Assembly: GCA_946622285.1 (NCBI GenBank)
Contig: CAMOPK010000002.1
Span: 4,313 to 68,312 of the forward strand
From: an uncultured Bacillota bacterium
Lineage (GTDB): Bacteria; Bacillota_I; Bacilli_A; RF39; UBA660
DNA length: 64,000 nt
Reading direction: 5' to 3'
Part shown: in pieces, positions 2,347 through 57,570 of the stretch
How the letters are laid out: each line of letters starts with the position of its first letter
Numbering within the stretch: the first letter of the stretch is position 1
Position numbers and translations under genes: made by a program
The notes under the pieces: generated by a model
The model's input: the letters and a program-made list of their open reading frames with translations, nothing else
Told to the model about the DNA's origin: nothing
Databases searched by the model: none

Positions 2347-2369
2347 AATCACACATTTGTGTGATTTTT
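2345..2369. terminator. Bidirectional hairpin terminator between convergent rnj and the NlpC/P60 gene
   Basis: AAAATCACACA/TGTGTGATTTTT palindrome flanked by A and T runs. Confidence 0.6.
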
Positions 2370-4308
2370 AATTGTAATAATTATCCATTTGCATTACTTT
2401 CATGAAAGTACTACTTCCACCTATTTGTCTACCTGTTCTTGAAGAATACTTTTCAACAACAAGACCCCATGCAGTTCCTTTTTCATGTGCAATTGTGACG
2501 GTTTCACCATCAACATCAATTATAAAACCCATGTGCCCTGTACGCCATACAACGTCTCCTGCTTTTATCATACCAGTGCTACCTTTAAAATCAACAACAC
2601 CTAATTTTTTTCCACCTAAACGTGTTAACCAAGTAGAACCACTAAAAGAACCAATTTCACTCTTTTTAAATCCAGCATTGAATAATATCCATGCAACAAA
2701 TCCTGTACAATCAATTCCTGCTGGTAACATATCATTTCCCATGTATGGTCTCATGTTCTTAATAACGCACCCCCACATTGGTGAAACACCTTTAAATTGT
2801 TCAGTATCATCATGACCATCCCAAGAATAATGCCAATGCCCTCCAGCCCAGAAATAAGGAATTTTAACGCCTATTTCTGTTGATAAGTATCTTCCAAGTG
2901 CTGTTGCAGTTGCACGCGTTCTAGAACCGTTAGTCCTAATAATTTCAGCTATTTGATTATTGTATTCAGTTCTATCCCCCTTGCATGCAATTACTTGAGT
3001 TGGAGTTGTTATTTGGACAATTTGTTCAACTTTACATTCTATGTTAGTTGTATTGCCTGCCAAATCTTTTAGTTCAACTTCTACTTTTTTAGAACCTTTT
3101 TTAGCTGAATATTCATCTGAAGTTAATATTTCAGATCTTTCACCATCTAAAATATATGTATAACCTGCAATTCCTTTGTTATCGCTTGCTGTTACATTTA
3201 CTTGAGTAGTAGATGCTCCTACTTTTGCACTACAACTACCAGTCGGTTTTATGTTATCAATATTATCAATTTCAACACTTTTAGTTATTTTATTTCCGTA
3301 AACATCATGAATTATAAATTGATATGTTCCATTTTGAGAAACAGGATATTCAACTATTCTATTTATGCTTTTGCTTCTATCAGGAAGAGTTATATTATCA
3401 TAGTCTTTTCCACTTACAGTAATCTTTATCTTATTTGAATTACTAATTCCGCTATTAGCTAAATCTACATTAATATTTAGGTCAGCTTGTCTTTGAACAA
3501 CTTGGACAGTACGACTTTGCATAGCTGCTTTACCTCTAGAATTTTCTATACTATAAGTAATAATATAAATACCTACTTTATTTGAATCAACTTTACCATT
3601 AACTTTAACTTGACGGCTTACTTTTCCATCTTCATAATCATATGCAACATAGCCTTCCTCAATATATTTTTCGCCCTTTGTTAAAGTTATGTCTTTATCA
3701 CCAAAAAGTGTCAAAATTGGATATTCTCTATCCACAAGTCCACTTATCGTTTGATCTTTATCATTTTGAACGCGAATAACTTTTCTAACTGCGCGTTCCT
3801 TTAGTTCTTCATCAATATAAGCATCATATAGTAAGTCATAAACACCAACTTGGTTATAAACAATACCAGAATTTATAACATCAGCATCTTGCTTTAACGT
3901 ATAAAGTGGATCATTAAATGCTTCATTCAAGTTTAAAATAACAACTTCTCCACCATTTAATTCAATTATTTTATTTTTATTGTTATTTATGTTAGATTCA
4001 TAATTGTCGCATTTTAAATATGGTGTATATTTTAAATTCCCATTTTCATTTTTAACTATTACTCCACTAGCCTTTAAACATAAAGCTGTTCCTTCAATTT
4101 CATTAAATTTATCAATACTAATATAGATTTGACTTTCGACTCTAATATTATTGTTTGAAATATACCTTTCAGCTTCAATTATCATTTCTTTTTCTATATC
4201 ATTGAAACCTCTTTTATTGCTTACAATAATTAATATGATAATAATTACTACTAAAATAGGAAGTGCATATTTTAGTATTTTTTTTACTCTTTCAAATCTA
4301 TCATCCAT
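2368..4308 (-). CDS. Membrane-anchored cell-wall hydrolase: N-terminal TM helix, Ig-like repeats, C-terminal NlpC/P60 domain
   Basis: 646 aa. N-terminal hydrophobic segment ILVVIIIILIIV. Ig-like segments (YDYEDGKVSRQVKVNGKVDSNKVGIYIITYS; IDNIKPTGSC...DLAGN). The C-terminus has GIDCTGFVAW (catalytic Cys) and GHMGFIIDVDGETVTIAHEKG (His residues). Confidence 0.75.
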   Translation of the reverse strand: MDDRFERVKKILKYALPILVVIIIILIIVSNKRGFNDIEKEMIIEAERYISNNNIRVESQIYISIDKFNEIEGTALCLKASGVIVKNENGNLKYTPYLKCDNYESNINNNKNKIIELNGGEVVILNLNEAFNDPLYTLKQDADVINSGIVYNQVGVYDLLYDAYIDEELKERAVRKVIRVQNDKDQTISGLVDREYPILTLFGDKDITLTKGEKYIEEGYVAYDYEDGKVSRQVKVNGKVDSNKVGIYIITYSIENSRGKAAMQSRTVQVVQRQADLNINVDLANSGISNSNKIKITVSGKDYDNITLPDRSKSINRIVEYPVSQNGTYQFIIHDVYGNKITKSVEIDNIDNIKPTGSCSAKVGASTTQVNVTASDNKGIAGYTYILDGERSEILTSDEYSAKKGSKKVEVELKDLAGNTTNIECKVEQIVQITTPTQVIACKGDRTEYNNQIAEIIRTNGSRTRATATALGRYLSTEIGVKIPYFWAGGHWHYSWDGHDDTEQFKGVSPMWGCVIKNMRPYMGNDMLPAGIDCTGFVAWILFNAGFKKSEIGSFSGSTWLTRLGGKKLGVVDFKGSTGMIKAGDVVWRTGHMGFIIDVDGETVTIAHEKGTAWGLVVEKYSSRTGRQIGGSSTFMKVMQMDNYYN

Positions 4309-5880: not shown

Positions 5881-6495
5881 TTACTCCTCTTCTTTTATTT
5901 CAGTATATTCAAGTTCAAAACTTGTTGAATTGTTTGTCGATTTAAATATATTGTATTTCTCTTCTTTATTAGTAAAATAATCTTCGTCCAAAACAAGTTT
6001 AATTACATTATCATTATATTTTACTGTTGAAAGTATATACGTTGCATTTAAAACAACTTCATTGATTTTATCCTCCGTAACTAAAGCTTCAATCTTAGCA
6101 TAGTTATACATAAATTCAATCAAATAATATTTATCATCCATTTTGGTTATTTCTAAATAACCTTTTTTGTTATTCATATCAATACTTTTTGAATAGTATA
6201 AATCTTTATTCTCTTTATAAGTAAAATCTTTCTTATAGTAGTAACTAATAATGTCTAAATATAAATAATAATAATCGCCATTACAATATAATTTTTCATT
6301 ATATTCATTACTATCTATGTATACAACGCCTCTTGGGACGTAATATTTATATCCTTTACCTATTGTGTTATAAAGCGTATTCTCTTTTGATAAAATAACT
6401 GAAACAATGTTGTCTATACTTTTGGTATTAATTCTAACAGCAGTACATCCTGTTAAAAAAATAAGTAAGAACAACATTAAAAGCAATTTTTTCAT
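5881..6495 (-). CDS. Lipoprotein, function unknown
   Basis: MKKLLLMLFLLIFLTGC carries the lipobox LTGC. The ATG at 6495 is preferred to the GTG at 6507. Confidence 0.6.
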   Translation of the reverse strand: MKKLLLMLFLLIFLTGCTAVRINTKSIDNIVSVILSKENTLYNTIGKGYKYYVPRGVVYIDSNEYNEKLYCNGDYYYLYLDIISYYYKKDFTYKENKDLYYSKSIDMNNKKGYLEITKMDDKYYLIEFMYNYAKIEALVTEDKINEVVLNATYILSTVKYNDNVIKLVLDEDYFTNKEEKYNIFKSTNNSTSFELEYTEIKEEE

Positions 6496-6574
6496 ATTCC
6501 ACCACACTAACTATAGTATACCAAATAATTCAATTATTACAAACTTTTTTAAAACTTTACAGTAAAGTAAATGT

Positions 6575-7216
6575 CTAGTTTTTATTAAATACTCCTCTAT
6601 AAATAGTTTTGCCAATTTTAACAAATTTTGTCTCATATTCAGTTGGAACATTATCTTTAACCATATCATCATATAAGTCCAAGTTCATTTCTGATATTAC
6701 ATAACCATTATTTGTTAAAGAAATTAATGAGTATTCAAATAGTTTTCTATTATCTGTTTTCATTTGAATTTCTTTTTCTTTTTTAAAAATAGTATCATAC
6801 TTTTTCAAAAATATCGGACTTGTTAATCTTCGTTTTGCATGTCTTTCTTTTGGCCATGGATCAGAAAAATTCAAATACAGTTTTTCAATTTCGTGATCAA
6901 ATATTTCATCAACGATAAATGCATCTTCACGAATGAAAAATATATTATCGAGTTCTAATTCATCAATCTTTTCAATCGCACGAACTAAGACACTATCATA
7001 TTTCTCAATTCCAATAAAATTAATGTCAGGGTATTTTGAAGCCATTCCTATTAGAAAGTCCCCTTTACCTGTACCAATTTCTAAATGTATTGGTTTTTTA
7101 TTTTTAAATAATGTCTTATATTTTCCTTTTAACGAAACAGGATCTTTGATTAAGTATTTTGATATTTCAATTCTTTCTTTTGCACCTTTAACATTTTTTA
7201 AACGCATAACTCCCAC
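6575..7216 (-). CDS. trmB: tRNA (guanine46-N7)-methyltransferase
   Basis: 213 aa with EIGTGKGDF (SAM-binding motif) and FSDPWPKERHAKRRL, the TrmB signature. Confidence 0.9.
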   Translation of the reverse strand: MGVMRLKNVKGAKERIEISKYLIKDPVSLKGKYKTLFKNKKPIHLEIGTGKGDFLIGMASKYPDINFIGIEKYDSVLVRAIEKIDELELDNIFFIREDAFIVDEIFDHEIEKLYLNFSDPWPKERHAKRRLTSPIFLKKYDTIFKKEKEIQMKTDNRKLFEYSLISLTNNGYVISEMNLDLYDDMVKDNVPTEYETKFVKIGKTIYRGVFNKN

Positions 7217-7291
7217 CTACTTAATTATACCATATAATGCATTGAAAATAAACGAATAATAGGATGTAAAAAAGATTCCATAAGGAATCTT

Positions 7292-9418
7292 TTAATTTGG
7301 AATATTCAATTCACAATAGTTTATTTCACCATTTCTATCTTTAATATAGCTAAAATATCTATACTTATTTTCTTGCTTTGGTATTGTATTATTGCTATCC
7401 CAATTAGTCATATCTTGAGAATATGGCAAATCTGCTAATTTAGACGAATCAGAATAATTAATTAAAATTGAATTTTGATTTGATGTCAATATACAAGCTA
7501 TTGCATCAGGATCATATTTAATTGAAGCAGATGCCGATTCTGGCGAAATATTTCCTGCTAAATCTTTAAAGAATGCATATATTGTATGCGTAGTTTTAGT
7601 TGAGCCAATGTTAAATGAACCAATCGCTGAATAACTAGTCCAACTATTGCTATTACAACTGCTAACGCTATTAGTTGAAGTCAAACAATAATATCCACCT
7701 TCAGTTTTAAGTTCACTATTTAATTGAAGTGTAACATTTCTTAAATGTGTAATTGTTGAATTATAGTTGATTATTATGCTGTTATTTACTGGTGGAATAT
7801 TATCCACAACAACACTCGCAACTTCTGTTATAGCATTGCCATTTCCTGCAGCATCATATATTGATCCTGATTTCAACATTACAATTGCACGTCCATTACC
7901 ACTTAAAGCCGTAACTCTTATTGTTGTGCCAGTATTATTAGATCCAACAACACTAACGGAAACATCAGAGTTTCCCTGCTTATCAATTAAAATCATCGAT
8001 GAATCAATTGTTGTTGAATTACTCATTTGATTATTATCTGTACAATTAACTGTATATTCCATATAATTTCCACTTTTTAAATGAAAATTACTTGAATTAG
8101 ATGTTGCTATACAATTTGGTTGTATTCTATCAAGATGAACTGTAACTGTCTTATTTAAAACATTTCCAGCTCTATCAGCGAGCGAAACATATATTGTTTT
8201 GGCACCTTCACCCGTATTCAATGTCCAATTATAAGTTGGGGCATAATTCACATAAGTACAATTACCTTCTGAAGAATTACTAACACACATTTTTTCAACA
8301 TCGGAACTTACATTTGAAAATTTCAACATTATTCTTTCAGTATTAGTATATCTACTATTTGAATCTCCAATTGATACATCTCCTGTTGGAGCTACATTGT
8401 CCAAGTGAATCGGGGCACTTATATATTCTGCATTTACAAGGTTTCCTGATGTATCACTTATAATACCTGATTTCAATGTAAGATTAACTTCACCATTACC
8501 TTCAGCACCATATACTGTAAACTTAAATTCTTTATTAGTTCCATTTGTTGTCACAATTGAATCACTTATTGTTGCTAAATTAGTATTGCTTAAATTTATT
8601 GCAGATGCAGGTAATTCAACATTTTTTATTCCAGCTACATCACTACAACTTAAAGTTATTTCAGTTGAAGACCCATTATGAATGTATGATTTTACTGGAT
8701 TTTTCCAAACACATGTTGGAGCTGCTGAATCAAATATGATTGTATCATCAATTGATGCAATTATGTTTTTATTGCTATTTCTAATGTATAAATGAACGAT
8801 ATTTTCGATATCGACAAGATTTAAATTCCCGGTTACACTTGTTGAACTTGTACTGAGTTTTTTCCAACTACAACTTGCTTCATTTCCTAGGGTTACACAA
8901 TATTCTGCAGTAATACTTGTACTATATTTCATATAGTATGTTACATTTCTTTGATTCGTATAGTGTGCATTACCTTCACCAACATAAAAACTGCTGACAA
9001 TTACTTTTTCAGATTCGGCAGTTACTACACACGATTGTGGTTTAGTGCAATCTTCAGAATATGTATATTCAAACTTATTGTAATTAGAGTCATAATTTAT
9101 AACAATACAACTATTTAATAAAGTATTATCTTCTAGATTCTTTAGTTCATTATTAGCAATATAACCATTCTTTTTCATTTGATCGAGAGTTATTTTTACT
9201 CCGTCAGGTGAATTCTTGGCTATTTCTAAACATGTCTTATTGTTTAATGACACATTTTTTGCTACTTCAACCAATCTTGACTTTTGCTCTTCATTTAAAT
9301 TTTTACGACTTTTATTTATTGTTGTCGTATACTGTGTTGCAATGATAGTTACAAGAAGTCCAAGGATTATTAGAACGCTGATTACTTCTATAAGTGTGAA
9401 TCCCCTTTTATCTTTCAC
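7292..9418 (-). CDS. Very large protein with a type IV prepilin-type N-terminal cleavage/methylation domain, followed by repeated Ig-like modules
   Basis: The leader MKDKRG|FTLIEVISVLIILGLLVTIIA is a class III signal (G/FTLIE). A GTG at 9418 lies 5 nt after AGGTGA, so I prefer it to the ORF start at 9427. The rest contains at least four modules bounded by D-x-x-(A/Q/P)P-x-(C/G) and ending in (A/S)GN. Confidence 0.7.
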   Translation of the reverse strand: MKDKRGFTLIEVISVLIILGLLVTIIATQYTTTINKSRKNLNEEQKSRLVEVAKNVSLNNKTCLEIAKNSPDGVKITLDQMKKNGYIANNELKNLEDNTLLNSCIVINYDSNYNKFEYTYSEDCTKPQSCVVTAESEKVIVSSFYVGEGNAHYTNQRNVTYYMKYSTSITAEYCVTLGNEASCSWKKLSTSSTSVTGNLNLVDIENIVHLYIRNSNKNIIASIDDTIIFDSAAPTCVWKNPVKSYIHNGSSTEITLSCSDVAGIKNVELPASAINLSNTNLATISDSIVTTNGTNKEFKFTVYGAEGNGEVNLTLKSGIISDTSGNLVNAEYISAPIHLDNVAPTGDVSIGDSNSRYTNTERIMLKFSNVSSDVEKMCVSNSSEGNCTYVNYAPTYNWTLNTGEGAKTIYVSLADRAGNVLNKTVTVHLDRIQPNCIATSNSSNFHLKSGNYMEYTVNCTDNNQMSNSTTIDSSMILIDKQGNSDVSVSVVGSNNTGTTIRVTALSGNGRAIVMLKSGSIYDAAGNGNAITEVASVVVDNIPPVNNSIIINYNSTITHLRNVTLQLNSELKTEGGYYCLTSTNSVSSCNSNSWTSYSAIGSFNIGSTKTTHTIYAFFKDLAGNISPESASASIKYDPDAIACILTSNQNSILINYSDSSKLADLPYSQDMTNWDSNNTIPKQENKYRYFSYIKDRNGEINYCELNIPN

Positions 9419-9473
9419 AAGTATCACCTAGTATAATTATATATTCTTTTATTAATTTTTTCAATAAAAATAT

Positions 9474-9502
9474 CAAACAAAAAAAGGTGATTAAATCACC
9501 TT
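9474..9502 (-). terminator. Rho-independent terminator after the LysM gene
   Basis: Minus strand reads AAGGTGA-TTTAA-TCACCTT followed by TTTTTTTG. It overlaps the stop codon at 9501. Confidence 0.7.
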
Positions 9503-10493
9503 ATTTTCTTTTAACACATAAGCAAAAATTATTATTAGCATAGTTGATATCCTGATTTGCTAATAAATAACCAGTTGAATCGGTTCCACAACATGAACTA
9601 CATGCTTCTGCACTACTTTGAGCGCCACATTTAGCATGTCTGACAGTATCAGGATGGCCTTCTGTATATACTACTGAATAATGCGTTCCAGGGAAATTCA
9701 TAACGCAATATTGGTTGCCATTTGAAAAAGTATATTTATCACCGTTCGCAGCATCTGTCGCATTACATGTGGCGTCAGCTCTATTATAATCTGCACAAAC
9801 AATATAGGAAAATTGTGTACCATCTTCATTAGCATAGAAATATTTAACTACACCGTCTTCAGTTCTTGCTTGAGCAATTACTATCCTTAATGATTTGGTG
9901 TACCCGTTAGATTGGCAAATTGAATCAGCATCAGTATAACCTTGAGCAGTAGGAATTGTTAGTTCTATACCTGCAGTTAATGCTTCATTATCACCTTTAC
10001 CAGCTATGCTAGGATTAGCATTTCTAATAGCACTTGCTGTAGTATTATATCTAGAAGCTATCCTAGTAAGCGTATCATCAGCTACAGTAGTATAAGTTGA
10101 TCTATTATATACCCCATGGCTACCAGCACCCGAACCGTCATAATCAAATAAAACATTCAAGCAAGATGCAACGCTTCTTTCTTTATTAGCATTTCCACTT
10201 GTTTCATCTAAGATACTAAGCATCCAAGTAATTCCCGAAAAAAGCACGAATACCAAAGCTGCTGCTATTGCTTTTTGGGTTAACAATCTTTGCGCTTTCT
10301 TAACCTCGTCTTCACTTTTAGTAGTTACTGCTTTAGCCATATCGAACATTCCAATAAATACTAAAGCTATTGGAACAATTACTTTAATGGCATTATAAAT
10401 CAAACTTGTTATCTTAGCTACCTCAGTAGGAATACAAACATTCCCACATCCCTGTACCCAAGGACCAGATCCAATACAATTTACTAAAAACAT
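9501..10493 (-). CDS. Cys-rich membrane protein with a central LysM domain; the N-terminus is a two-TM hairpin
   Basis: 330 aa with RBS AGGAGG. It starts 10 nt after the rny stop. Two hydrophobic helices (VIVPIALVFIGMF and AIAAALVFVLFSGITWMLSIL) flank a charged loop. LysM-like segment YTTVADDTLTRIASRYNTTASAIRNANP...LTIP. The protein has 14 cysteines, including CSSCC and CLC near the C-terminus. Confidence 0.55.
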   Translation of the reverse strand: MFLVNCIGSGPWVQGCGNVCIPTEVAKITSLIYNAIKVIVPIALVFIGMFDMAKAVTTKSEDEVKKAQRLLTQKAIAAALVFVLFSGITWMLSILDETSGNANKERSVASCLNVLFDYDGSGAGSHGVYNRSTYTTVADDTLTRIASRYNTTASAIRNANPSIAGKGDNEALTAGIELTIPTAQGYTDADSICQSNGYTKSLRIVIAQARTEDGVVKYFYANEDGTQFSYIVCADYNRADATCNATDAANGDKYTFSNGNQYCVMNFPGTHYSVVYTEGHPDTVRHAKCGAQSSAEACSSCCGTDSTGYLLANQDINYANNNFCLCVKRK

Positions 10494-10503
10494 ATGTTGC
10501 CTC

Positions 10504-12054
10504 CTATTTTGCTTCTTCTGTTGCGCGTGTTTCTCTTATTACTGTTACTTTAATTGTACCAGGATATTGTAGTTCACTTTCAATCTTTTCTTTGATTTCA
10601 CGTGCTACTTTAAAACTACCTAAATCATCAATTTCTTCTGGCTTTACAATTACACGAATTTCACGACCAGCTTGAACAGCATAAGTTTTATCAATACCCT
10701 TAATATCTGTAGCAATTTTTTCTAAATCTTCTAAACGTTTAACGTAATTTTCTAAAGAATCATTTCTTGCACCAGGGCGAGATGCTGAAAGTGCATCAGC
10801 AATTGCAACAATTGATGAAATTACACTTGTTGCTGGTTTATCACCATGATGTGATTCAATAGCATTAATAACTTCTTTACCTTCGCGATATTTCTTAGCA
10901 AGTTCTGCTCCAATTTCAACATGTGAGCCTTCAATTTCATGATCAACAGCTTTTCCTATATCATGGAATAAACCTGCTCTTTTAGCTATCATTACATTTT
11001 CACCTAATTCACCAGCTATTAATCCTGATAAATTGGCAACTTCAATTGAATGTTGTAATGCATTTTGGCCATAACTTGTTCTAAAGTTCAAACGTCCAAG
11101 AATTTCAACTAATTCTGGATCAACTTTAGTTATTCCAAGTTCAAATAAAGCCGTTTCTCCAATATCACGAACTTTGATTTTCATTTCTTTTACTGTCTTA
11201 TCATAAAGTTCTTCAATTCTAGTTGGATGAATACGTCCATCTTTAATTAAACTTTCAATCGTAATTCTTGCAATTTCACGACGATATGGATCAAATGATG
11301 ATAGAACTATTGCTTCTGGTGTATCATCAATGATTAAATCAACACCTGTAACTGATTCTAAAGTACGAATATTACGTCCTTCACGACCAATAATACGACC
11401 TTTCATTTCATCATTTGGTAAAGTTACAACTGTAATTGTTTGTTCATTTGCAACTTCACTAGAATACTTTTGCATAGCTTCAACTAGTAATTCTTTAGAT
11501 TTCTTATCTGCTTCTAATTGAGCTTCTGTTTCTCTTTCGCGAATATAGTTAACAATTTCAAGATTCATCATCTCTTCAACTTTTTGCATTACCATATCAC
11601 GTGCTTGATTCTTAGAAAATCCCGCGATTTTCTCTAACAAATCAACTTGTTCCTTTTTTATTTCTTCGATTTTAGCTTGTTCTGCTTGTATCTCATTTTG
11701 TTTTTCTACTAAACTATGTTCTTTTTGCTCCAACTGATTCTCACGATTTTGAATAGTTTGGTCACGACGATCAATATTATTCTCACGTGCAAGCAAACGA
11801 TCTTCAGTTTCCTTTATCTCGTTCTTTCTTTCTTTTACATATTCATCAGTTTCAATTTTCAATTTATGAGCTTCTTCTTTAGCTTCAAATAAATAATCTT
11901 TTTTAATTTTTTCTGCTTCTTTTTGAGCTTTATCTAGAACATTTTCAGCTTTATTCTCAGCATTTTTGTTCTTCATATAGTTAAAAACAAATACTGTAAT
12001 AGCGCCTATAATAAGACCAATAAGTAGTCCAAGCAATAAGGAAGACCATTCCAT
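10504..12054 (-). CDS. rny: Ribonuclease Y
   Basis: 516 aa with an N-terminal TM helix, a coiled coil, a KH domain ([12 protein letters not shown]) and an HD domain (LFHDIGK...HH). Confidence 0.95.
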
Positions 12055-14430: not shown

Positions 14431-14767
14431 ATAATACTAATAAGCCATGTTCTGTAACCATAAAGGTTGGCAAACATTTATCTATCTTGCGATCCAAGTC
14501 AAAATTGAATTCTTTTAACTTAGTTCCCCTACCAAAATTTGGGTTTCTCACTCGCGGGGTTTACGTCGTCTCACTTGATTTATTTCTAAACCAAATCGTC
14601 ACTATAGCACTTTTATATCTAATATAACCATGGTTAGGTTAATTCGATGCCGTCAGTAAAAACTGCCACAGGTTATTTTTTCCCTGTGCACGAACACTAC
14701 CAACATCTCAGTTGGTGTGAGCATGGACTTTCCTCTACAAAAATTGCAGCGTTTGCCTAGTATTATT
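14431..14767 (-). ncRNA. rnpB: RNase P RNA (bacterial type B)
   Basis: The minus strand contains GAGGAAAGTCCATGCTC, GTAAACCCCGCGAGTGAGAAACCCAAATTTTGGTAGGGGAAC and ACAGAACATGGCTTA. These are near-identical to conserved B. subtilis rnpB blocks. A P1 helix forms between AATAATACTA (5') and TAGTATTATT (3'). It sits next to gpsB, as I recall for B. subtilis (from memory, not checked). Confidence 0.9.
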
Positions 14768-24129: not shown

Positions 24130-24158
24130 ATTATAACAAATAAGGTTTTAATTGTCAA
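24130..24158 (-). promoter_or_regulatory. SigA-type promoter for the T-box/tRNA-Pro/proS unit
   Basis: TTGACA (24158..24153), a 17-nt spacer, then TATAAT (24135..24130) with an upstream TG (extended -10). Confidence 0.7.
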
Positions 24159-25014
24159 TCTTATATTCAGTATAATTACCAGCTACATCATATACTTTGA
24201 CACTATATTTGTGTTTACCTGCCATATATATTTCTTTAGTATATGTTATACTCTTATCTGTCATAAATACTCTTGCTCCATCACGATACCATTCATATCT
24301 ATCTATACCACTAGAATCTTCTCCACATATTATGTCGATAGTAGCATCATCTTCATAAAGCTTACCTATTCTTGTAATGTCACATTTAGGTGCTTTCAAG
24401 TCAACTTTGAAGATTTCACGATGAGTTACTGCCTTATTGTTTTTATCAGTGTAATTTATATATAAGAACCATATTCCATTTGGAAGTTTAATCTTATCTT
24501 TATAATATAAATTAGGATTACATTCTCCTTCAATACTTATACAATATTTTATTTCTTCAATATTGATAGTATCAAGAGTAATTGTTAATTCTTTGTTATA
24601 CCAATTTTTAATTGGTTCTATATCAGTGTTAACGATTAAACGAACAGGATAACTTTTAACTCGAAGTTTAATTGAAGAACTTGAACCATTACTAAGTTCA
24701 ACAGTAATAGTTACATCACCAAAAGATATTCCTTTTACTCTACCTGTTGAATCAACTGTTGCAACTTTACTATTAGAAGTTGTCCATAATAAACTTTCAT
24801 CTTGCTTTGCATTTGAAATTGTATATCCGAATCTTACTTGATCACCTATAAAAATCTCAGCTGTTTTATCATGAAAATATATTTCATGTTCTGGATCTTT
24901 TAGAATAGTTCTATTAATGACAAGTAATACTAAACCAATTGTAACTACAAGTGAAGTAATAAATATGCATTTTTCTTTACTTAAAGTTATTTTCCTTTTC
25001 TTTCGTCTAGCCAT
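24148..25014 (-). CDS. Membrane-anchored surface protein with Big_2-like and Ig-like domains
   Basis: Start at MARRKKRK (ATG 25014), then a TM helix. Big_2-like LLWTTSNSKVATVDSTGRVKGISFGDVTITVEL. C-terminal module VDLKAPKCDI...VYDVAGN. Confidence 0.6.
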   Translation of the reverse strand: MARRKKRKITLSKEKCIFITSLVVTIGLVLLVINRTILKDPEHEIYFHDKTAEIFIGDQVRFGYTISNAKQDESLLWTTSNSKVATVDSTGRVKGISFGDVTITVELSNGSSSSIKLRVKSYPVRLIVNTDIEPIKNWYNKELTITLDTINIEEIKYCISIEGECNPNLYYKDKIKLPNGIWFLYINYTDKNNKAVTHREIFKVDLKAPKCDITRIGKLYEDDATIDIICGEDSSGIDRYEWYRDGARVFMTDKSITYTKEIYMAGKHKYSVKVYDVAGNYTEYKIDN

Positions 25015-25093
25015 ATATAACACCCTATATTCTTTTACACTACTATTATAATATTTATTTGTAGAAAAATAAATAAAAAAAATAACCAAAAGG

Positions 25094-29032: not shown

Positions 29033-29066
29033 TAAAAAAATCTTGTTTTTTAAACAAGATTTTTTA
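29033..29066 (-). terminator. Terminator after the 885-aa surface protein gene
   Basis: AAATCTTGTT-loop-AACAAGATTT with flanking A7 and T6 runs. It overlaps the stop codon. Confidence 0.7.
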
Positions 29067-31721
29067 ATTTCCTACAAAGTATACACTATCAGCAAGTGAT
29101 CTTCCATAAGAACCTTCATTATAACGAATTAAATTTAATGATGACGTGCTTGGAAGCTTATACCCAAGAGTCACACTTCCTCCACCATCAATGTTAAGAG
29201 CATTAGTGCATCCTATTGATTTAAATACATTTTGCATCTCACTATAATTCATACTCTGTCCGCTTTGTGTTGTCAAAATTACATAATTATATTTATCTAT
29301 TTGACATAATCCTGTTCGTTGGGCAGATGATGTAGAATCTACGTTTTGCAAACTACTATTTTTAATTAAAACTGGTCCAAAAAAGCCATTATTCTTAACA
29401 CCATCATTTATCATATTGTTAGCTACTCCCTCACAGCAGCTACCATAAAAAGATAATACGCTATTTTTATTAATACTCCAATTGGTGTAAAAGCCATTAG
29501 GAATCCAACTCTTTTCACCTTTTCTTATAACTGTACCATCAACTATTAATATCGGTGATATTGTTGTATTCTTCCATGTTGGATTTGCTTGTACACATTC
29601 TGGATGAAATCTTTCTGTACAAATATCACTTCCATTAACTGCAATAATCGCTTTGGAAGAAAAATTGTTTTTCCTTATTTCATTTGTAATAATATCTTTT
29701 ACAGGTGCTAAAGTTCCAAGTTCTGGATGACCAATCTTAAATTGCTTATAGGCATCAGAAACCCAAATATATGAAAGAATATATTTACTACTAATACCAT
29801 TATCTACTGAATATTTTATTGTTGATCCATCATATCTAATTGATAAGTTAGAAGTTGTTGCAACAACAAAGGCTGTTGCCTTCTTTCTGCCATCACTACT
29901 TTTTGCCGTAATCGTTGCTGTTCCAGTTTTTAATGCTTTAACAGTTCCATTATCAACAGAAACAACACTTGGATTACTACTTTCCCAGATAACACTTTTG
30001 TTAGTTGCATTAGTCGGCGTTACACTTGCTACCAATTGAACAGTTGTATCAATTTTTAAATGAACTACCGATTTGTCCAAATTTATTCCACTTACTGCGA
30101 CATTTGAACCAGTATTTGATATCCAGTTAGCATAAAGTTTAACTTTACCGCCAGCAACTGATGTTAAATTACTTACTGAAGCTTTATCTGCTAAAGATGG
30201 AACAATAGATAATTTTAAATTTTTAACATGTGGAACGTTACCTGTACTATAATTTCCAAAAAATGAAAGATATGTTACATTCTGTGAACTATTCTTATTT
30301 AACCCAACTTTAAAGTCAAATGAAAAATGTTTATAACTTGTAGTAACATTATATTTTTTTGCTCCACCTACCATATAATACTTTGCTATTGATGGTTGAT
30401 AACTATAAACTTCAATCACATTATTTTTACTAGTATTAGCAGATTTCATATCAAATTCTAGATGATATGTAGTATCTGTCCCATACTTATTAAAATATGG
30501 TGCCATATCAAAATTTTGAAGATATTCATTAGTACCACTTTTTTCAAGTTCATAACTGTATAGAATTCCATTCCAACCATTAAATTTATAACCAGATTTT
30601 GTAAATGTATTGGCATTCAATGAATATTTGTTTCCATATGTCATTACTTGCGATGCCATATTTCCTGTTCCACCATTGGCATCATAAATAACAGTATATT
30701 GATTTGCTGTCCAAACAGCTGTTAATGTTAAATCACTTGTTACAGTCTTATTAAAATCATATGGTCTACCAGACAATTGCCATTCTTTAAATGTATATCC
30801 TGTTTTAGTTGGATTGTTAGGTTTATTAACATAATTTCCAGGATCTAAAACCTGACTTACAACGGCTGTTCCACCATTACTATCAAATGTTATGTTATAT
30901 CTTTTTAAATTTGTAACAATTACTTTTGTACTAACTTTTTTCCCACCAGCAGAAGCTGTTATCTTAGCTTCGCCTTCTTTGATTCCTTTTACTAAACAAC
31001 TGTTATTATCAGCTTCGACTTTTACAATAGTACTATCACTTGATTTACATGTATGCTTTCCATTTAACCCCTTTAGCATAATTCTTTCCTCAGAGCCTGT
31101 TTTAATTGTAGATGATGTTGATAAGAACGAAAAAGTGGCTGACTTTACTTTAATTTTGTAATTATATGTTTCTTCTCCTCTTGAAATTACTAATGATGTA
31201 GTCCCCACTTTTTTAGCAATAATGCTTCCATCTACATATGATGCTACATTTTCATTTTCAATTTTAAATGAATACTTTTCTAAACATATATTAGGAACCC
31301 CAAAATCCAAGTTTGATGAAATCCCAGCTTCAACTAAAATTGTTTTATTTAATGTTTTAAGTTTGTCACAGATTACTACTGTGATTTTCTTATTTATATC
31401 ATTTGTCTTTATTTCAACTTCTTCAGTTCCTGCAGCTTGAGCTATAAAAGGAACATCAAAATCATTTCCAATATACTCATTCTTTTCACTTGAAAGTAAT
31501 GAGTTTTTATAAATAATTGTTGTTTTAGAATTATTATCGCCAATAACGCTTACTTTAATTGTATTATTTTCACCAACAAAAACAGCATCTGGAGCTTTTA
31601 CATCTAATGAAATATCATTAGGTTTTTGGCCAAAGAAAATTAAATATGCTGCTATTCCTATCACTATAAAAACAATGCCAATTAAAATAAATAATAATGG
31701 TTTCTTGCCTGTTTCATTCAT
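29064..31721 (-). CDS. Large membrane-anchored surface protein: Big_2 domains, Flg_new (Listeria-Bacteroides) repeats, C-terminal phosphodiester-glycosidase-like domain
   Basis: 885 aa with an N-terminal TM helix (LLFILIGIVFIVIGIAAYLIFF). Flg_new repeats (YNITFDSNGGT...GYTFKEWQL; YTVIYDANGGTG...GYKFNGWN). Big_2 (VIWESSNPSVVSVDNGTVKALKTGTATITA). The C-terminal ALNIDGGGSVTLGY resembles the NAGPA/DUF2233 motif. Confidence 0.65.
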   Translation of the reverse strand: MNETGKKPLLFILIGIVFIVIGIAAYLIFFGQKPNDISLDVKAPDAVFVGENNTIKVSVIGDNNSKTTIIYKNSLLSSEKNEYIGNDFDVPFIAQAAGTEEVEIKTNDINKKITVVICDKLKTLNKTILVEAGISSNLDFGVPNICLEKYSFKIENENVASYVDGSIIAKKVGTTSLVISRGEETYNYKIKVKSATFSFLSTSSTIKTGSEERIMLKGLNGKHTCKSSDSTIVKVEADNNSCLVKGIKEGEAKITASAGGKKVSTKVIVTNLKRYNITFDSNGGTAVVSQVLDPGNYVNKPNNPTKTGYTFKEWQLSGRPYDFNKTVTSDLTLTAVWTANQYTVIYDANGGTGNMASQVMTYGNKYSLNANTFTKSGYKFNGWNGILYSYELEKSGTNEYLQNFDMAPYFNKYGTDTTYHLEFDMKSANTSKNNVIEVYSYQPSIAKYYMVGGAKKYNVTTSYKHFSFDFKVGLNKNSSQNVTYLSFFGNYSTGNVPHVKNLKLSIVPSLADKASVSNLTSVAGGKVKLYANWISNTGSNVAVSGINLDKSVVHLKIDTTVQLVASVTPTNATNKSVIWESSNPSVVSVDNGTVKALKTGTATITAKSSDGRKKATAFVVATTSNLSIRYDGSTIKYSVDNGISSKYILSYIWVSDAYKQFKIGHPELGTLAPVKDIITNEIRKNNFSSKAIIAVNGSDICTERFHPECVQANPTWKNTTISPILIVDGTVIRKGEKSWIPNGFYTNWSINKNSVLSFYGSCCEGVANNMINDGVKNNGFFGPVLIKNSSLQNVDSTSSAQRTGLCQIDKYNYVILTTQSGQSMNYSEMQNVFKSIGCTNALNIDGGGSVTLGYKLPSTSSLNLIRYNEGSYGRSLADSVYFVGN

Positions 31722-44209: not shown

Positions 44210-46306
44210 TTATTGTTCCAAATAAGATGTTTTATATGAATCTGAACCAATCGTTTCAGTTCCATGGACTATTGAATATGAAGAATCAGTTTGAACAACA
44301 TTTATTTCATTGTCAATAGCATCAGTTATTCCTTTGACAACACCATCATAGAAATCAAACGCTACAGTACTTCTAATACCATATGTTTTACCTTGAATTT
44401 CTGGAGAAACAGTACTTAAATTTCCGTCTGTATTATCTCCAATTGTTAAATTACCTTCGTTGGAAATAGCTTGTTGATAAACTCCGACTATCGTACCACC
44501 TGTTATTTTAACTGTACCATTAAGCAAATTTTGAACGGTAGCTCTTTCTAAAGTGGTAGTAGTATTTGGCACTCCTGTTGCAGTTGCGCTTAGATAAGCA
44601 TTTCCACTTATTTCTACATATCCACCTGCTATATTATATACAGCAGATCTTGTCCCTGTAGAAATTACATTTCCACCACTTATATGTAAAGAACCAGTCG
44701 CATTATTATTTATAGTCGCTTTTGTTGCTGCATTACCTGTTATAGTTCCATTATAAACTTCAAGAGTTCCGTTATTTTCAATCGTTGATGCATCCCCACT
44801 ATTACTTAAAGTATGACCTTGCAAATCAAGAGTAATAGTTTTATTGTTCGGAACTTTTACACTTTCTATGCAATCATCTGTAAGTAATACAGTTGAACCA
44901 CTAGTCGCTTGATTTATTGCTGTTTGTAATGATGTATATACTATTCCGTTTACAGATGCAACACTAGTTTGAGTCCAATGTGCAAAGATTGTTGTATCAT
45001 TTTCAAAAGTAGTACTTGGTGTTACTTCACTTCCACCTTCAGGAAGTGTATACCAACCATCAAATCTATAACCTGTTCGCGTAGCTAAAGGTAACGATCC
45101 AATAGCACTTCCGCTTTCGATTGCCCTTGTAGCTTCAGGTGAAGTCCCAGACATAGCATCAAATGTAATAGTTACACCTACCCCTAGATAAGAAATATTG
45201 TATGTTTGATTATCTATTACTTCAGTTGCACTAACAAGCATAAAATCTTCTTCCTGACTTGTAATTTTTGCAACATTATTAAATGAAGAATTCTTCCCTT
45301 TGGCAGTACCATCATAAAATGCAAAATTAGTTGTACTACTAACTCCTATTGTACTTCCTTGAATTACAGGTGATAATTTATTAGAAGCATTATCTTCTAC
45401 TCCAATAGTCATATTACCTCTATTGTCTACACCAATATAACTTTCTGAAACAATTGTACCACCGGTTATTAAAAGTGTACTACTGGCTTGATTTTGAACA
45501 GCAGCTCTTAAATTTCTTCCGGGTCCACTGGCTGATCTTAAATAAGAATTTCCAGTTATTTCAACAGTTCCTTTATCATTATATAAAGCCTGCTTACCAC
45601 CAGTAGAAGTCATCAATATTCTAACGCCGTCTACAATTAAATTTGCATTTTGATTATTGTTTATTGTGGCAGCAGCGGTTGAATTTGATGTTACTATGCC
45701 ATTTGAAATCTTTAATGTACCATTGTTAGTAATTGCTGCGTCAGCACCTAAAGCAGTTAAAGTATGATTTTGTAAATTAATTACTATATTTTTATTTTTA
45801 CTTACAATTGTATCTTCTGTTGTATTAGTCAATAATTTAATAGTTGTTAATGTATTATCGGTTGGAACTGCATTAATAGCTTCTTGAAGTGTGTCATAAA
45901 ATACTCCATCTATTTCTGCCACACCAGTTACCCAATTTGCATATAAATTAACTATTGAACCATCTATTTCTGACAAATTATTAACTAATTGATTATCTGT
46001 ATATAAAGTACCAGATCCGTTTGTTGATTTAGTCCAACCAGAAAAAGAATAATTTTCAATTTCAAAATTATTCAAATTTAAATTTTGAGCTGTACCATAA
46101 ACAAAATCTTGATTTGACATACTACCAGTTACAGTTGCACCTGCTGGAGCATTAGCATTAAAAACTACTGTATAACGTGGTTCTCGCGAATTGAGAGTTA
46201 TATATTTTGTTTTAGATTCAGTATATTTACTATATGTTATTGGCACAATTATGGCAGTCAAAAATAAAATCGATAACATTGTGCGAAGCTTAATTTTCTT
46301 TGCCAT
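44210..46306 (-). CDS. Secreted 698-aa protein with a SipW-cognate-like signal and two tandem [Flg_new repeat + parallel beta-helix] modules
   Basis: N-terminus MAKKIKLRTMLSILFLTAIIVPITYSKYTES. Flg_new segments (YTVVFNANAPAG...YSFSGWT; ITFDAMSGT...GYRFDGWY). Gly/Asn/Thr-rich beta-helix-type repeats (ITNNGTLKISNGIVT / IENNGTLEVYNGTIT). Confidence 0.6.
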   Translation of the reverse strand: MAKKIKLRTMLSILFLTAIIVPITYSKYTESKTKYITLNSREPRYTVVFNANAPAGATVTGSMSNQDFVYGTAQNLNLNNFEIENYSFSGWTKSTNGSGTLYTDNQLVNNLSEIDGSIVNLYANWVTGVAEIDGVFYDTLQEAINAVPTDNTLTTIKLLTNTTEDTIVSKNKNIVINLQNHTLTALGADAAITNNGTLKISNGIVTSNSTAAATINNNQNANLIVDGVRILMTSTGGKQALYNDKGTVEITGNSYLRSASGPGRNLRAAVQNQASSTLLITGGTIVSESYIGVDNRGNMTIGVEDNASNKLSPVIQGSTIGVSSTTNFAFYDGTAKGKNSSFNNVAKITSQEEDFMLVSATEVIDNQTYNISYLGVGVTITFDAMSGTSPEATRAIESGSAIGSLPLATRTGYRFDGWYTLPEGGSEVTPSTTFENDTTIFAHWTQTSVASVNGIVYTSLQTAINQATSGSTVLLTDDCIESVKVPNNKTITLDLQGHTLSNSGDASTIENNGTLEVYNGTITGNAATKATINNNATGSLHISGGNVISTGTRSAVYNIAGGYVEISGNAYLSATATGVPNTTTTLERATVQNLLNGTVKITGGTIVGVYQQAISNEGNLTIGDNTDGNLSTVSPEIQGKTYGIRSTVAFDFYDGVVKGITDAIDNEINVVQTDSSYSIVHGTETIGSDSYKTSYLEQ

Positions 46307-46332
46307 AAATTCACCTCTTCTCTAGGATTTAT

Positions 46333-46839
46333 TTAATCACTCAAATCAATTTGAGTAAAAATAACATCAATTTTTACAGAACTACTATCAATATCTCCAG
46401 ACCCTAAAGCTGTAGAAAATGTCAAAGTATGTTCATTAATTGCATTATTACTTCCAGCGTTAAATGATCCTGCATTTTCAAAAACAACTTTATTACTTGA
46501 AATTGTTCCAGAATTATTGCCATCAAGTAAAACTGTTACTCCTGCTGGTAAACTTGATACTTCAATTGCATAATCAACAGCAACATCAGAATTGCTAGTT
46601 ACTTTTACTATATAATTTTGATTGGTATTACCACCTGAAACCAAATCCAAGACATCAACTGCATTATCACTAGTATCAGCATATACTTCCCATTTAGCAA
46701 CATTTACATTAGCTGTCGTTTCTGGAAGTACAACAAAATATTTTGATAAGGTATTAGTAGTAAAATATGAGAGAAAAATAATAAAATAAACATAAAGAAA
46801 AATAACGTATTTCTTTTTCAATCTTCTTTTTTTCTTCAT
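46333..46839 (-). CDS. Small secreted protein with a SipW-cognate-like signal (TasA/camelysin-like candidate)
   Basis: MKKKRRLKKKYVIFLYVYFIIFLSYFTTNTLSKYFVV...VNVAKWEVY. The ORF extends to 46860 and overlaps the upstream peptidase gene. Confidence 0.5.
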   Translation of the reverse strand: MKKKRRLKKKYVIFLYVYFIIFLSYFTTNTLSKYFVVLPETTANVNVAKWEVYADTSDNAVDVLDLVSGGNTNQNYIVKVTSNSDVAVDYAIEVSSLPAGVTVLLDGNNSGTISSNKVVFENAGSFNAGSNNAINEHTLTFSTALGSGDIDSSSVKIDVIFTQIDLSD

Positions 46840-57530: not shown

Positions 57531-57540
57531 GACTAAATAT

Positions 57541-57569: not shown

Positions 57570-57570
57570 A

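What the first reader, a model, noticed from the sequence alone, without database searches (positions are those of the whole stretch)
7292..9418. Orphan ~700-aa protein with a type IV prepilin leader fused to an array of Ig-like modules
The predicted N-terminus MKDKRG|FTLIEVISVLIILGLLVTIIA is a canonical prepilin peptidase substrate. Normal pilins and pseudopilins are 100-200 aa, whereas this protein continues for about 680 aa. It has a ComGC-like head followed by at least four modules delimited by D-x-x-(A/Q/P)P-x-(C/G).

No pilus machinery genes (PilB/ComGA ATPase, PilC/ComGB, PilD/ComC) occur anywhere in the 64 kb. The gene sits between trmB and a terminator.

It may be a pilus-tip adhesin supplied in trans to a distant com or pil system. 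Alternatively, the pilin helix may be used simply as a membrane anchor.
Basis: partly seen in the sequence, partly recalled or inferred. Interest (0 to 1): 0.6.

Follow-up and report, generated by a model that had tools for sequence, protein, structure and literature searches.

The report
Giant modular type IV pilin gene
This gene from an uncultured gut bacterium encodes a real type IV pilin subunit carrying a rod of six immunoglobulin-like modules, a new family within the known class of "modular pilins"; whether a pilus machine exists to use it could not be checked.

Summary
Window 7292-9418 (- strand, GTG start) encodes a 708-aa protein. Its N-terminus passes both curated prepilin models (Pfam N_methyl 27.2 bits against a cutoff of 21.2; TIGR02532 25.7 against 16.3).

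It is not an ORFan. Twenty full-length orthologs (43-100% identity, 696-736 aa) exist in uncultured low-GC gut Bacilli. They always lie between rny and trmB, behind an invariant TTGAAA-17-TATAAT promoter and flanked by terminators.

AlphaFold (pLDDT 87) predicts a 51-residue alpha-1 helix, a small alpha-beta head (residues 1-130) and six beta-sandwich modules. The modules alternate between two types. They are homologous to Big_13/Big_7 repeats of giant adhesins.

The head is not ComGC. It belongs to a family of about 120-aa stand-alone pilins found in related MAGs. There the same head is also fused to Flg_new, DUF5011 or dockerin modules.

No PilB, PilC or PilD homolog lies in the window or within 10 kb of any related pilin locus. 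The whole-genome check for a prepilin peptidase or assembly ATPase could not be made.

Best reading: a modular minor pilin (adhesin or stalk) served in trans. Main rival: a pilin module used only as a surface anchor. It is a new member of a known kind and of moderate interest.

The parts
9436..9464 (-). Sigma-A-type promoter: -35 TTGAAA (9464-9459), 17-nt spacer, -10 TATAAT (9441-9436)
   Evidence: It is the best promoter-like site in 6400-10700, matching 11 of 12 positions. The -35, the -10 and the A/T-rich surroundings are invariant in five orthologous loci whose proteins have diverged to 43-52% identity.
9424..9428 (-). Ribosome-binding site GGTGA, 5 nt upstream of the GTG start
   Evidence: Read directly from the sequence. 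Invariant in the five-locus alignment A4.
7292..9418 (-). Coding sequence of the 708-aa modular prepilin (stop codon 7294-7292)
   Evidence: ORF list and sequence. Twenty full-length orthologs. One 203-nt contig from a bovine-gut metatranscriptome is 99.5% identical to 8819-9021; this is only weak evidence of transcription.
9401..9418 (-). Leader peptide MKDKRG (aa 1-6), with the predicted prepilin-peptidase cleavage site after Gly6
   Evidence: N_methyl and TIGR02532 hits above their cutoffs. Gly-1 is present in 19 of 20 orthologs and is Ala in one. F+1, T+2, L+3 and E+5 are invariant.
9029..9400 (-). Pilin module (aa 7-130): hydrophobic alpha-1N, a long alpha-1 helix (aa 9-59), a small alpha-beta head, and conserved Cys63, Cys104, Cys124 and Cys130
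   Evidence: AF2 models with pLDDT 87-89. A head HMM matches 118-137-aa stand-alone pilins over positions 4-124. Foldseek's top hit is a monoderm type IV pilus pilin but is not significant.
8714..9028 (-). Module A (aa 131-235), type-1 beta-sandwich, ends in DSAAPT
   Evidence: hhalign gives A-C 94% and A-E 90.5% probability. Beta strands in the AF2 model. Invariant Cys174 and Cys183.
8387..8713 (-). Module B (aa 236-344), type-2 beta-sandwich, ends in DNVAP
   Evidence: hhalign gives B-D 98.6% probability. Invariant Cys236 and Cys258.
8114..8386 (-). Module C (aa 345-435), type-1, Big_13-like
   Evidence: Pfam Big_13 at aa 352-430 scores 21.3 bits, below the cutoff of 27. PF19077 is precomputed for 12 of the 20 family members listed. 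This is the module most often repeated in giant adhesins.
7787..8113 (-). Module D (aa 436-544), type-2, ends in DNIPPV
   Evidence: hhalign gives B-D 98.6% probability. Invariant Cys436 and Cys459.
7496..7786 (-). Module E (aa 545-641), type-1
   Evidence: hhalign gives C-E 97% probability. Invariant Cys578 and Cys588 and the motif YAFFKDxAGN.
7295..7495 (-). Module F (aa 642-708), the distal C-terminal module, found only in this family
   Evidence: Only weakly related to E (62.9%). It was not the best-matched stretch in any of the giant proteins found by the exhaustive profile search. Invariant Cys642, Pro665, Trp673 and Asp694; Cys702 is conserved in at least 90% of the orthologs.
7268..7293 (-). 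Intrinsic terminator hairpin with a U-tract directly after the stop codon
   Evidence: RNA fold -11.4 kcal/mol, z = -5.1, none of 200 shuffles folds as well.
9484..9502 (-). Terminator of the upstream gene, which isolates the pilin gene as its own transcription unit
   Evidence: Terminator scan. RNA fold -8.2 kcal/mol, z = -4.0.

Best explanation
The gene encodes a modular type IV pilin.

Shown:
- A canonical class III signal peptide.
- A predicted long alpha-1 helix and a small alpha-beta head that is homologous to about 120-aa stand-alone pilins of related uncultured Bacilli.
- A rod of six disulfide-containing Ig-like modules in the order type 1-2-1-2-1 followed by a unique distal module. 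The modules are homologous to Big_13/Big_7 repeats of giant adhesins.
- A conserved, monocistronic unit with a sigma-A-type promoter, at a fixed core-genome position between rny and trmB.

Inferred:
- A prepilin peptidase encoded elsewhere in the genome cleaves after Gly6 and methylates Phe1.
- The alpha-1N helix holds the protein in the membrane.
- A type 4 filament machine (Com-like or type IV pilus, also encoded elsewhere) loads it as a low-abundance minor pilin, most likely at the filament tip because the roughly 580-aa extension cannot pack in the filament body.
- The Ig rod holds the distal module F away from the cell, where it acts as an adhesin or ligand-binding device in the gut.
For: - The prepilin models are passed above their curated cutoffs, and the motif is unique in the window.
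- F1, T2, L3 and E5 are invariant and G-1 is present in 19 of 20 orthologs down to 43% identity. E5 matters for filament assembly rather than for membrane anchoring (established pilin biology).
- The head and module A are the most conserved parts (68% mean identity to the window protein, against 47-58% for the other modules).
- The head HMM matches small pilins over its whole length in L009, L054 and L056, and the head of the 635-aa L010 fusion. Pilins of other phyla match only over HMM positions 1-50.
- The AF2 model has pLDDT 87, with helix 9-59, a head, and six beta-sandwich modules.
- Module homologies are A/C/E 90-97% and B/D 98.6%.
- An exhaustive profile search finds 20,228 proteins with these modules. 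Most of the 150 listed are 1,000-6,000-aa repeat proteins, and the five that were scanned carry Big_7, Big_13 or DUF7743. Foldseek matches multi-Ig rods, including the bacterial grappling-hook protein GhpA and S-layer proteins.
- The promoter and RBS are invariant and terminators lie on both sides. Synteny is conserved in all contexts examined.
- Modular pilins are an established class: more than 1,200 proteins in 264 architectures, with tip display proposed (PMC8179133).
Against: - No PilB/ComGA, PilC/ComGB, PilD/ComC, PilT or PilM homolog lies in the 64-kb window or within 10 kb of any of the low-GC Bacilli pilin loci examined. Pilins of other phyla fetched by the same scan sit beside PilB/PilC.
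- Whether the genome encodes the machinery at all was not testable here.
- No small pilin could be tied to the same genomes.
- Foldseek does not significantly match the isolated head to solved pilins (best hit 8pfb_C, E = 0.32, TM 0.33).
- No ligand or binding function can be read from module F.
Confidence: 0.55

Rival explanations
1. The pilin module is used only as a surface-display anchor. The protein may be processed by a prepilin peptidase but is never polymerised. It stays rooted in the membrane by alpha-1N, and the six Ig modules (roughly 20-25 nm by inference) span the wall to expose module F. In this lineage the class III signal peptide plus head would be a general-purpose anchor for many surface proteins, replacing sortase anchoring.
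For: - Pilin genes of this head type are single genes scattered among housekeeping genes in every related locus, never beside machinery.
- The same head is fused to very different cargo: Flg_new repeats with a Gly-rich tail (635 aa), an unknown extension (1,427 aa), DUF5011 Ig, dockerin, and 586-aa and 1,252-aa proteins.
- A published survey reports that the related orders RFN20 and ML615J-28 lack srtA/B sortases (PMC10868615).
- The protein has no LPXTG motif and no other C-terminal anchor.
Against: - An anchor alone would not need invariant E5, or a conserved globular head with conserved cysteines that is as constrained as any module.
- Stand-alone 115-132-aa pilins with the same head are abundant, which makes sense for filament subunits and not for anchors.
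- The order of the window's organism is not established, so the sortase argument is indirect.
Confidence: 0.3
2. A sporulation-linked pilin: the protein is part of a spore or forespore surface structure.
For: - In relatives, the small pilins with the same head lie directly after spoIIAA-sigF, and before spoVAC/AD/AEB (L056/L057) or before rny (L009).
- An SSPI spore-protein gene lies next to the ortholog in L050.
Against: - The giant pilin has a near-consensus sigma-A promoter that is invariant across orthologs, and it is bounded by terminators, so it is not read from a sporulation operon.
- Its neighbours recA, rny and trmB are vegetative housekeeping genes.
- The linkage to sigF concerns paralogous small pilins in other genera.
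Confidence: 0.05
3. Not a pilin at all: an ordinary signal-anchored Ig-repeat surface protein whose N-terminus resembles a prepilin by chance.
For: Only the N-terminal 26 residues hit curated pilin models. The curated ComGC, ComGD and GspG models fail their cutoffs, and Foldseek on the head is not significant.
Against: - Both domain models exceed their curated cutoffs.
- The diagnostic residues are invariant over 20 orthologs.
- The whole 130-aa head, not just the helix, is homologous to small proteins that are themselves N_methyl-positive and have pilin size and layout.
Confidence: 0.03

Closest known systems
Modular type IV pilins, e.g. Streptococcus sanguinis PilB (pilin module plus vWA) and PilC (pilin plus lectin) (Raynaud et al. 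2021, PMC8179133)
   Same: A class III signal peptide and a small pilin module in a monoderm bacterium, with non-pilin functional modules grafted onto its C-terminus. These proteins are proposed to be tip-displayed adhesins.
   Different: The cargo here is six tandem Ig-like modules rather than one globular domain. The gene is monocistronic in a housekeeping neighbourhood, not inside a pil operon. No machinery or partner pilins have been identified. There is no detectable sequence similarity to PilB or PilC beyond the N-terminal motif.
Large minor pilins of type IVb pili: ETEC CofB and Vibrio cholerae TcpB
   Same: A pilin module followed by beta-repeat and beta-sandwich domains. CofB forms a tip-located complex (as summarised in PMC8179133). 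TcpB appears among the weak Foldseek hits of the head (7w63_B, E = 4.5).
   Different: Those are diderm type IVb systems, encoded inside the pilus operon, with two extra domains rather than six. There is no sequence homology.
About 120-aa stand-alone pilins of uncultured low-GC Bacilli (P0027-P0140; L009, L054, L056, L058)
   Same: The same head family (28-38% identity over more than 90% of the head), the same N-terminus and the same C-terminal Cys pair. They too are orphan single genes among housekeeping genes.
   Different: They stop after the head. They are the likely evolutionary source of the pilin module and possibly the major subunits of the filament.
Giant Big_13/Big_7/DUF7743 repeat surface proteins (1,000-6,000 aa)
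   Same: Modules C, D and E align contiguously to their repeat units, with up to 43 matched stretches per protein. They form rod-like Ig arrays.
   Different: They were found through their repeat modules. Whether any of them carries a pilin N-terminus was not checked.
ComGC / Com pilus major pilin and GspG pseudopilin
   Same: [quoted passage not shown]
   Different: The curated models are failed by wide margins (ComGC 14.6 against 75; GspG 31.9 against 88.85). The real comG operons fetched (L108, L168) have a different pilin type (AFTLIEML...IIPN) and sit next to ComGA and ComGB.
Archaeal class III signal-peptide surface proteins (the Sulfolobus 'bindosome' sugar-binding proteins); from my own knowledge, not tested here
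   Same: A prepilin-type N-terminus placed on large non-filament cargo proteins. This is the model for the rival 'anchor' reading.
   Different: This is an archaeal system with dedicated Bas assembly genes. Nothing equivalent has been identified here.

Membership tests
Type IV pilin / type 4 filament subunit | Class III signal peptide: a short charged leader ending in Gly, then F/M at +1, Glu at +5 and about 20 hydrophobic residues | tested here: met
   PF07963 scores 27.2 bits (cutoff 21.2) and TIGR02532 scores 25.7 bits (cutoff 16.3). The leader is MKDKRG. F1, T2, L3 and E5 are invariant in 20 orthologs and G-1 is present in 19 of 20.
Type IV pilin / type 4 filament subunit | 'Lollipop' fold: a long N-terminal alpha-1 helix packed on a small antiparallel beta-sheet head | tested here: inconclusive
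   AF2 predicts helix 9-59, short helices and a beta-sheet up to residue 121, at pLDDT 87-89. Foldseek against the PDB puts a monoderm type IV pilus pilin first (8pfb_C), but at E = 0.32 and TM 0.33.
Type IV pilin / type 4 filament subunit | C-terminal disulfide-bonded loop in the head | tested here: met
   Cys104 and Cys124 are invariant in the family. The equivalent pair is present in most small homologs (GC...x19...C). The bond itself is inferred, not shown.
Type IV pilin / type 4 filament subunit | A prepilin peptidase (Peptidase_A24) in the same genome | not testable with these tools
   None in the 64-kb window or in the 10-kb flanks of related loci.
Type IV pilin / type 4 filament subunit | An assembly ATPase (T2SSE) and platform protein (T2SSF) that polymerise it | not testable with these tools
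   Absent from the window and from every low-GC Bacilli pilin locus. An AT-codon Walker-A scan of metagenome contigs found 120 GspE-family loci, none with this head type. Presence elsewhere in the genome is unknown.
Modular pilins (Raynaud et al. 2021) | An N-terminal pilin module joined by a short linker to one or more modules that are not specific to type IV pilus biology | tested here: met
   The head (aa 1-130) is followed by six beta-sandwich modules that recur in non-pilin giant adhesins. The definition is taken from PMC8179133.
ComGC (NF040999) / ComGD / GspG (TIGR01710) | Whole-protein score above the curated equivalog cutoff | tested here: not met
   ComGC 14.6 against 75; ComGD 24 against 70; ComGE 25.2 against 49; GspG 31.9 against 88.85, covering residues 5-60 only.
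Big_13 bacterial Ig-like domain (PF19077) | Pfam gathering score | tested here: inconclusive
   The window protein scores 21.3 bits, below 27, at aa 352-430. PF19077 is recorded for 12 of the 20 family members listed. The family profile hits giant proteins carrying Big_13 and Big_7.
Sortase-anchored (LPXTG) surface proteins | A C-terminal LPXTG motif, a hydrophobic stretch and a charged tail | tested here: not met
   The C-terminus is ...EINYCELNIPN, with no LPXTG and no hydrophobic tail.

The most novel reading that the evidence does not exclude
In this uncultured, reduced-genome branch of gut Bacilli (relatives include RF39), the type IV pilin module may have become a general device for displaying surface proteins. 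Dozens of different cargoes (Ig rods, Flg_new repeats, dockerin, proteins over 1,200 aa) would be fused to one head family. Their genes are scattered singly through core housekeeping operons and are uncoupled from any pilus gene cluster. The 708-aa protein would then be a core-genome, wall-spanning stalk, either loaded onto a minimal filament or anchored without polymerisation. That would be a bacterial counterpart of the archaeal use of class III signal peptides.
Probability: 0.2. Interest if true: 0.7.

Novelty: new member of a known kind. Interest (0 to 1): 0.42.

Why it matters
Modular pilins are thought to explain how simple type 4 filaments gain new functions, but few have been studied, and almost none in uncultured gut bacteria. 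This family is conserved, sits in the core genome and appears to be independently transcribed. It offers a clean case: one pilin head carrying a defined Ig rod and a unique distal module.

In these ruminant and human gut Bacilli, pilin genes of one head type are scattered among housekeeping genes and fused to many different cargoes. That raises a testable question: do they run a trans-acting minimal pilus system, or do they use pilin modules as a sortase-independent way to display surface proteins? Either answer would add to what is known of the cell surface of a lineage known only from metagenomes.

Tried and rejected
**Machinery in the same genome**
1. The look-up of the exact 711-aa ORF (alternative upstream GTG) found nothing. 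The 708-aa form is the one on record.
2. The single genome-contig scan was swamped by generic pilin N-termini and gave only one full-length ortholog, L004.
3. I tried matching 'longest_contig' values (875341, 177998, 121832, 119114...) in a head-profile search and in an alpha-1N-profile search. Neither gave a match. The second search returned only proteins of 102 aa or fewer.
5. An AT-biased Walker-A DNA pattern scanned over metagenome contigs gave 120 GspE-family loci. Their pilins are GspG-, ComGC- or type IV pilus-like, not this head type.

**Hidden components in the window**
7. A motif scan for the second catalytic Asp box of PilD found nothing in any locus.
8. A scan for transmembrane segments found no unannotated polytopic protein in the window.

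**Structure**
10. Foldseek on the head alone was not significant. A sequence search of the PDB hit only alpha-1N helices and one SiiE-like Ig domain.

**Other checks**
11. ComGC-like identity was rejected on curated scores.
12. The short 'pilins' P0024-P0026 and P0071 are frameshifted or truncated fragments of the giant family, not stand-alone genes.
13. Literature searches for pili or competence in RF39 and RFN20 found nothing relevant.
14. RNA evidence is a single 203-nt metatranscriptome contig. The two metatranscriptomes from the source sample gave no clean match inside the gene.
Full report
**What is there**

On the - strand, an ORF runs from a GTG at 9418 to a stop codon at 7294-7292. 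The ORF listing starts it at an upstream in-frame GTG (9427), but that codon lies inside the GGTGA ribosome-binding site at 9428-9424. The GTG 5 nt after that site gives MKDKRGFTLIE.... In five orthologous loci the RBS and the spacing to the start codon are conserved. The leaders read MKDKRG, MINKKG, MNKKG and MKDNKA. The product is 708 aa.

**Is the N-terminus a prepilin signal?**

Yes. Pfam N_methyl scores 27.2 bits (gathering cutoff 21.2). NCBIfam TIGR02532 scores 25.7 bits (cutoff 16.3). A six-frame scan for the G-[FMLIVYAW]-[ST]-[LMF]-x-E motif finds exactly one site in the 64 kb, and it is this one.

The equivalog models for ComGC, ComGD, ComGE, ComGF, GspG and GspH touch the protein at weak E-values, and every one with a stated cutoff scores far below it (ComGC 14.6 against 75; GspG 31.9 against 88.85). 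The ComGD and ComGC alignments reach into the head (residues 4-152 and 5-96); the rest cover only the first 33-61 residues. So 'ComGC-like' is not a supported label.

**The family**

A search of 5.8 billion protein clusters returned 20 full-length relatives. They are 696-736 aa long and 43-100% identical, and all are N_methyl-positive. Only three distant Ig-repeat proteins turned up besides them.

In the alignment (A1), F7, T8, L9 and E11 are invariant. These are F1, T2, L3 and E5 of the mature protein. G6 is present in 19 of 20 sequences and is Ala in one. Fifteen cysteines are invariant and a sixteenth (Cys702) is conserved in at least 90% of the sequences, at two or four per module. Every module boundary carries a D-x-x-x-P motif.

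An exhaustive HMMER search of 1.84 billion cluster representatives listed only two full-length architectures of this kind among its best 150 (P0007, P0145). So the fusion family is small.

**Genomic setting**

In every context retrieved, the order of genes is recA - rny - (variable small gene, or none) - pilin - trmB - lipoprotein - ... - RNase J. This holds for the window's own 121.8-kb contig and for contigs carrying orthologs at 52%, 48% and 43% identity.

The gene is bounded upstream by the terminator of the preceding gene (9502-9484). Downstream it has its own hairpin (7293-7270, -11.4 kcal/mol, z = -5.1).

The best promoter-like site in the region is TTGAAA-17-TATAAT at 9464-9436, matching 11 of 12 positions. 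Its two hexamers, the surrounding A/T tract and the RBS are invariant in all five orthologous loci, although the proteins have diverged to about 45% identity. This marks a conserved, independently transcribed, sigma-A-type unit.

A bovine-gut metatranscriptome holds one 203-nt contig that is 99.5% identical to 8819-9021. This is weak evidence, since DNA carry-over cannot be excluded.

GC content (0.27-0.31) matches the rest of the window. RNase P is class B, and the ortholog in L004 is from a MAG titled 'uncultured Bacilli bacterium'. DNA runs holding the sequence come from bovine, sheep and goat gut and from gut samples of unstated host; orthologs also lie on human (Hadza) gut contigs.

**Anatomy of the protein**

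AlphaFold2 on the 20-sequence alignment gave mean pLDDT 87.2. It predicts a helix at 9-59, short helices and a small sheet up to residue 121, and then beta strands throughout.

Profile-profile comparison of sub-alignments divides the extension into six modules:

| Module | Residues | Type | hhalign support |
|---|---|---|---|
| A | 131-235 | 1 | A-C 94%, A-E 90.5% |
| B | 236-344 | 2 | B-D 98.6% |
| C | 345-435 | 1 | C-E 97% |
| D | 436-544 | 2 | B-D 98.6% |
| E | 545-641 | 1 | C-E 97% |
| F | 642-708 | distal, unique | only weakly like E (62.9%) |

The array therefore reads 1-2-1-2-1-F. The head and module A are the most conserved parts (68% mean identity to the window protein). The other modules range from 47% to 58%.

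The family profile hits 20,228 proteins at E <= 1e-3. Most of the best 150 are 1,000-6,000-aa proteins with up to 43 matched stretches, and the matches often cover C-D-E contiguously. The five I scanned carry Big_7, Big_13 or DUF7743.

Foldseek on the full model matches multi-Ig rods. These include the bacterial grappling-hook protein GhpA, the S-layer proteins SbsB, SbsC and Sap, and eukaryotic Ig receptors. Module F was not the best-matched stretch in any of these proteins, so it appears to be family-specific.

**The head is a pilin head of its own family**

A profile of the first 130 residues retrieved a large set of 115-132-aa N_methyl proteins. They are 28-38% identical over more than 90% of the head and share the GC...C C-terminal pair.

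An HMM built only from the giant family matches these small proteins over positions 4-124 (L054 71.9 bits, L009 60.9 and 53.2, L056 48.6). It also matches the head of a 635-aa fusion in L010. Pilins of other phyla match only over positions 1-50.

AF2 on the head alone gives pLDDT 88.7 with the same topology. Foldseek ranks a Streptococcus sanguinis type IV pilus pilin first, but not significantly (E = 0.32, TM 0.33). I therefore score the fold criterion as inconclusive rather than met.

**A lineage-wide pattern**

The same head is fused to other cargo in related low-GC MAGs:
- Flg_new repeats plus a Gly-rich tail (L010, 635 aa).
- An unknown 1,427-aa extension (L032).
- Bact_surface_Ig-like / DUF5011 (L022; P0108, named by NCBI as from Candidatus Faecisoma).
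- Dockerin (P0079).
- 586-aa and 1,252-aa N_methyl proteins in L054.

Candidatus Faecisoma is GTDB genus CAG-878, order RF39 (PMC8035907).

All these genes are single genes among housekeeping genes:
- beside truA and ABC-transporter genes (L010);
- among ybeY, cdd, era and recO (L045);
- among leuS, dinB, murG, murB and ftsQAZ (L054);
- next to rpoBC (L058);
- directly after spoIIAA-sigF (L009, L056).

**Machinery**

The Pfam labels of all called genes across the window show no T2SSE, T2SSF or Peptidase_A24. I ran phmmer with a verified PilD, PilB, PilT, PilC and PilM set from L043. It found homologs beside pilins in loci of other phyla, but none in the window or in any low-GC Bacilli locus. 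No unannotated polytopic membrane protein exists in the window.

I could not scan whole genomes. The genome scan, the context look-ups and the protein searches were exhausted without linking any machinery gene to the clade.

**Interpretation**

The protein fits the published class of modular pilins. That class is defined by an N-terminal pilin module with grafted non-pilin modules. It comprises more than 1,200 proteins in 264 architectures, is proposed to be tip-displayed, and is exemplified by S. sanguinis PilB (PMC8179133).

I consider the following most likely. A prepilin peptidase processes the protein, and it is incorporated as a minor, probably tip-located, subunit of a filament built from small pilins by machinery encoded elsewhere. 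Invariant E5 and the strong constraint on the whole head argue for this. An anchor alone would need neither.

The main rival (about 0.3) is that the pilin module serves only as a membrane anchor for a wall-spanning stalk, in a lineage that uses this device widely. The scattered orphan genes, the variety of cargo and the reported lack of sortases in the neighbouring orders RFN20 and ML615J-28 (PMC10868615) are compatible with it.

A sporulation link is suggested only by the position of paralogous small pilins in other genera. The vegetative-type promoter argues against it.

**Verdict**

This is a new family within a known kind, and it is of moderate interest. The interest lies less in the single gene than in the lineage-wide pattern of orphan pilin fusions and the unanswered question of who assembles them.

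Noticed in passing
window 44210-49303 (- strand): There are two SipW/archaeal-type signal peptidase I genes (48710-49303 and 46754-47302; TIGR02228 101.7 and 80 bits, cutoff 51.85). They are interleaved with three small exported proteins of no known family and followed by a 698-aa Flg_new-repeat protein. Several of these start with a transmembrane segment followed by an (S/A)KYTE-like motif, as SipW substrates of the TasA/camelysin type do. This looks like a second, unrelated surface-fibre system.
   Followed up: partly
window 9501-10493 (- strand): The gene directly upstream of the pilin encodes a conserved 115-aa N-terminal module (two transmembrane helices; Cys6, Cys16, Cys20; 'VCIP'). It is followed by a LysM domain (30.1 bits) and a Cys-rich tail. 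Its orthologs are 120 aa (L001) and 231 aa (L050), and the gene is missing in L052 and L004. Only faint similarity to T4SS_pilin (PF18895, E = 0.066) and to a Spiroplasma/Mycoplasma membrane-protein family was found.
   Followed up: partly
L056 10001-10375, L057 2247-2621, L009 1083-1815: In related Bacilli MAGs the about 120-aa pilins with the same head lie immediately after spoIIAA-sigF. They come before spoVAC-spoVAD-spoVAEB (L056/L057) or before rny (L009). A prepilin gene sitting in sporulation operons is unexplained.
   Followed up: no
L054 / L055 10001-20399: Three N_methyl proteins (132 aa, 586 aa and 1,252 aa) are scattered in 10 kb among leuS, dinB, murG, murB, ftsQ, ftsA and ftsZ. 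The largest lies directly after ftsZ.
   Followed up: partly
L025 1113-8189 and L041 264-8062: In Erysipelotrichaceae/Bacillales-labelled MAGs, N_methyl proteins of 407 aa and 295 aa occur; in L025 they lie a few kb from a 682-aa ATPase with a GSTGSGKS Walker A motif. I read that ATPase as VirD4/TraG-like from the motif alone and did not test it. If correct, it hints at pilin-like proteins on a conjugative element.
   Followed up: no
window 14436-14764 (-) and 57443-57849 (-): Bacterial RNase P RNA class B (272 bits), which is typical of Bacillota. Four tRNA genes cluster at 57443-57849, and four more tRNAs lie elsewhere in the window.
   Followed up: no
window 2368-4308, 24148-25089, 29064-31721 (- strand): Other large surface proteins have an N-terminal transmembrane anchor rather than a prepilin signal. 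They are a 646-aa Bact_surface_Ig-like protein with a faint CHAP hit, a 288-313-aa Big_2 protein, and an 885-aa protein with Flg_new, Big_2 and NAGPA. The organism therefore uses several anchoring styles. No LPXTG protein or sortase was seen in the window.
   Followed up: partly
L003 20417-22127; L001 18583-21113; L052 18741-21271 (just outside the window start): A conserved pair of a 584-aa DUF87 (HerA-like) ATPase and a 259-aa protein of no family lies about 8 kb downstream of the pilin in all orthologous contexts. I read this pair as more likely DNA-related than pilus-related. That was not tested.
   Followed up: no
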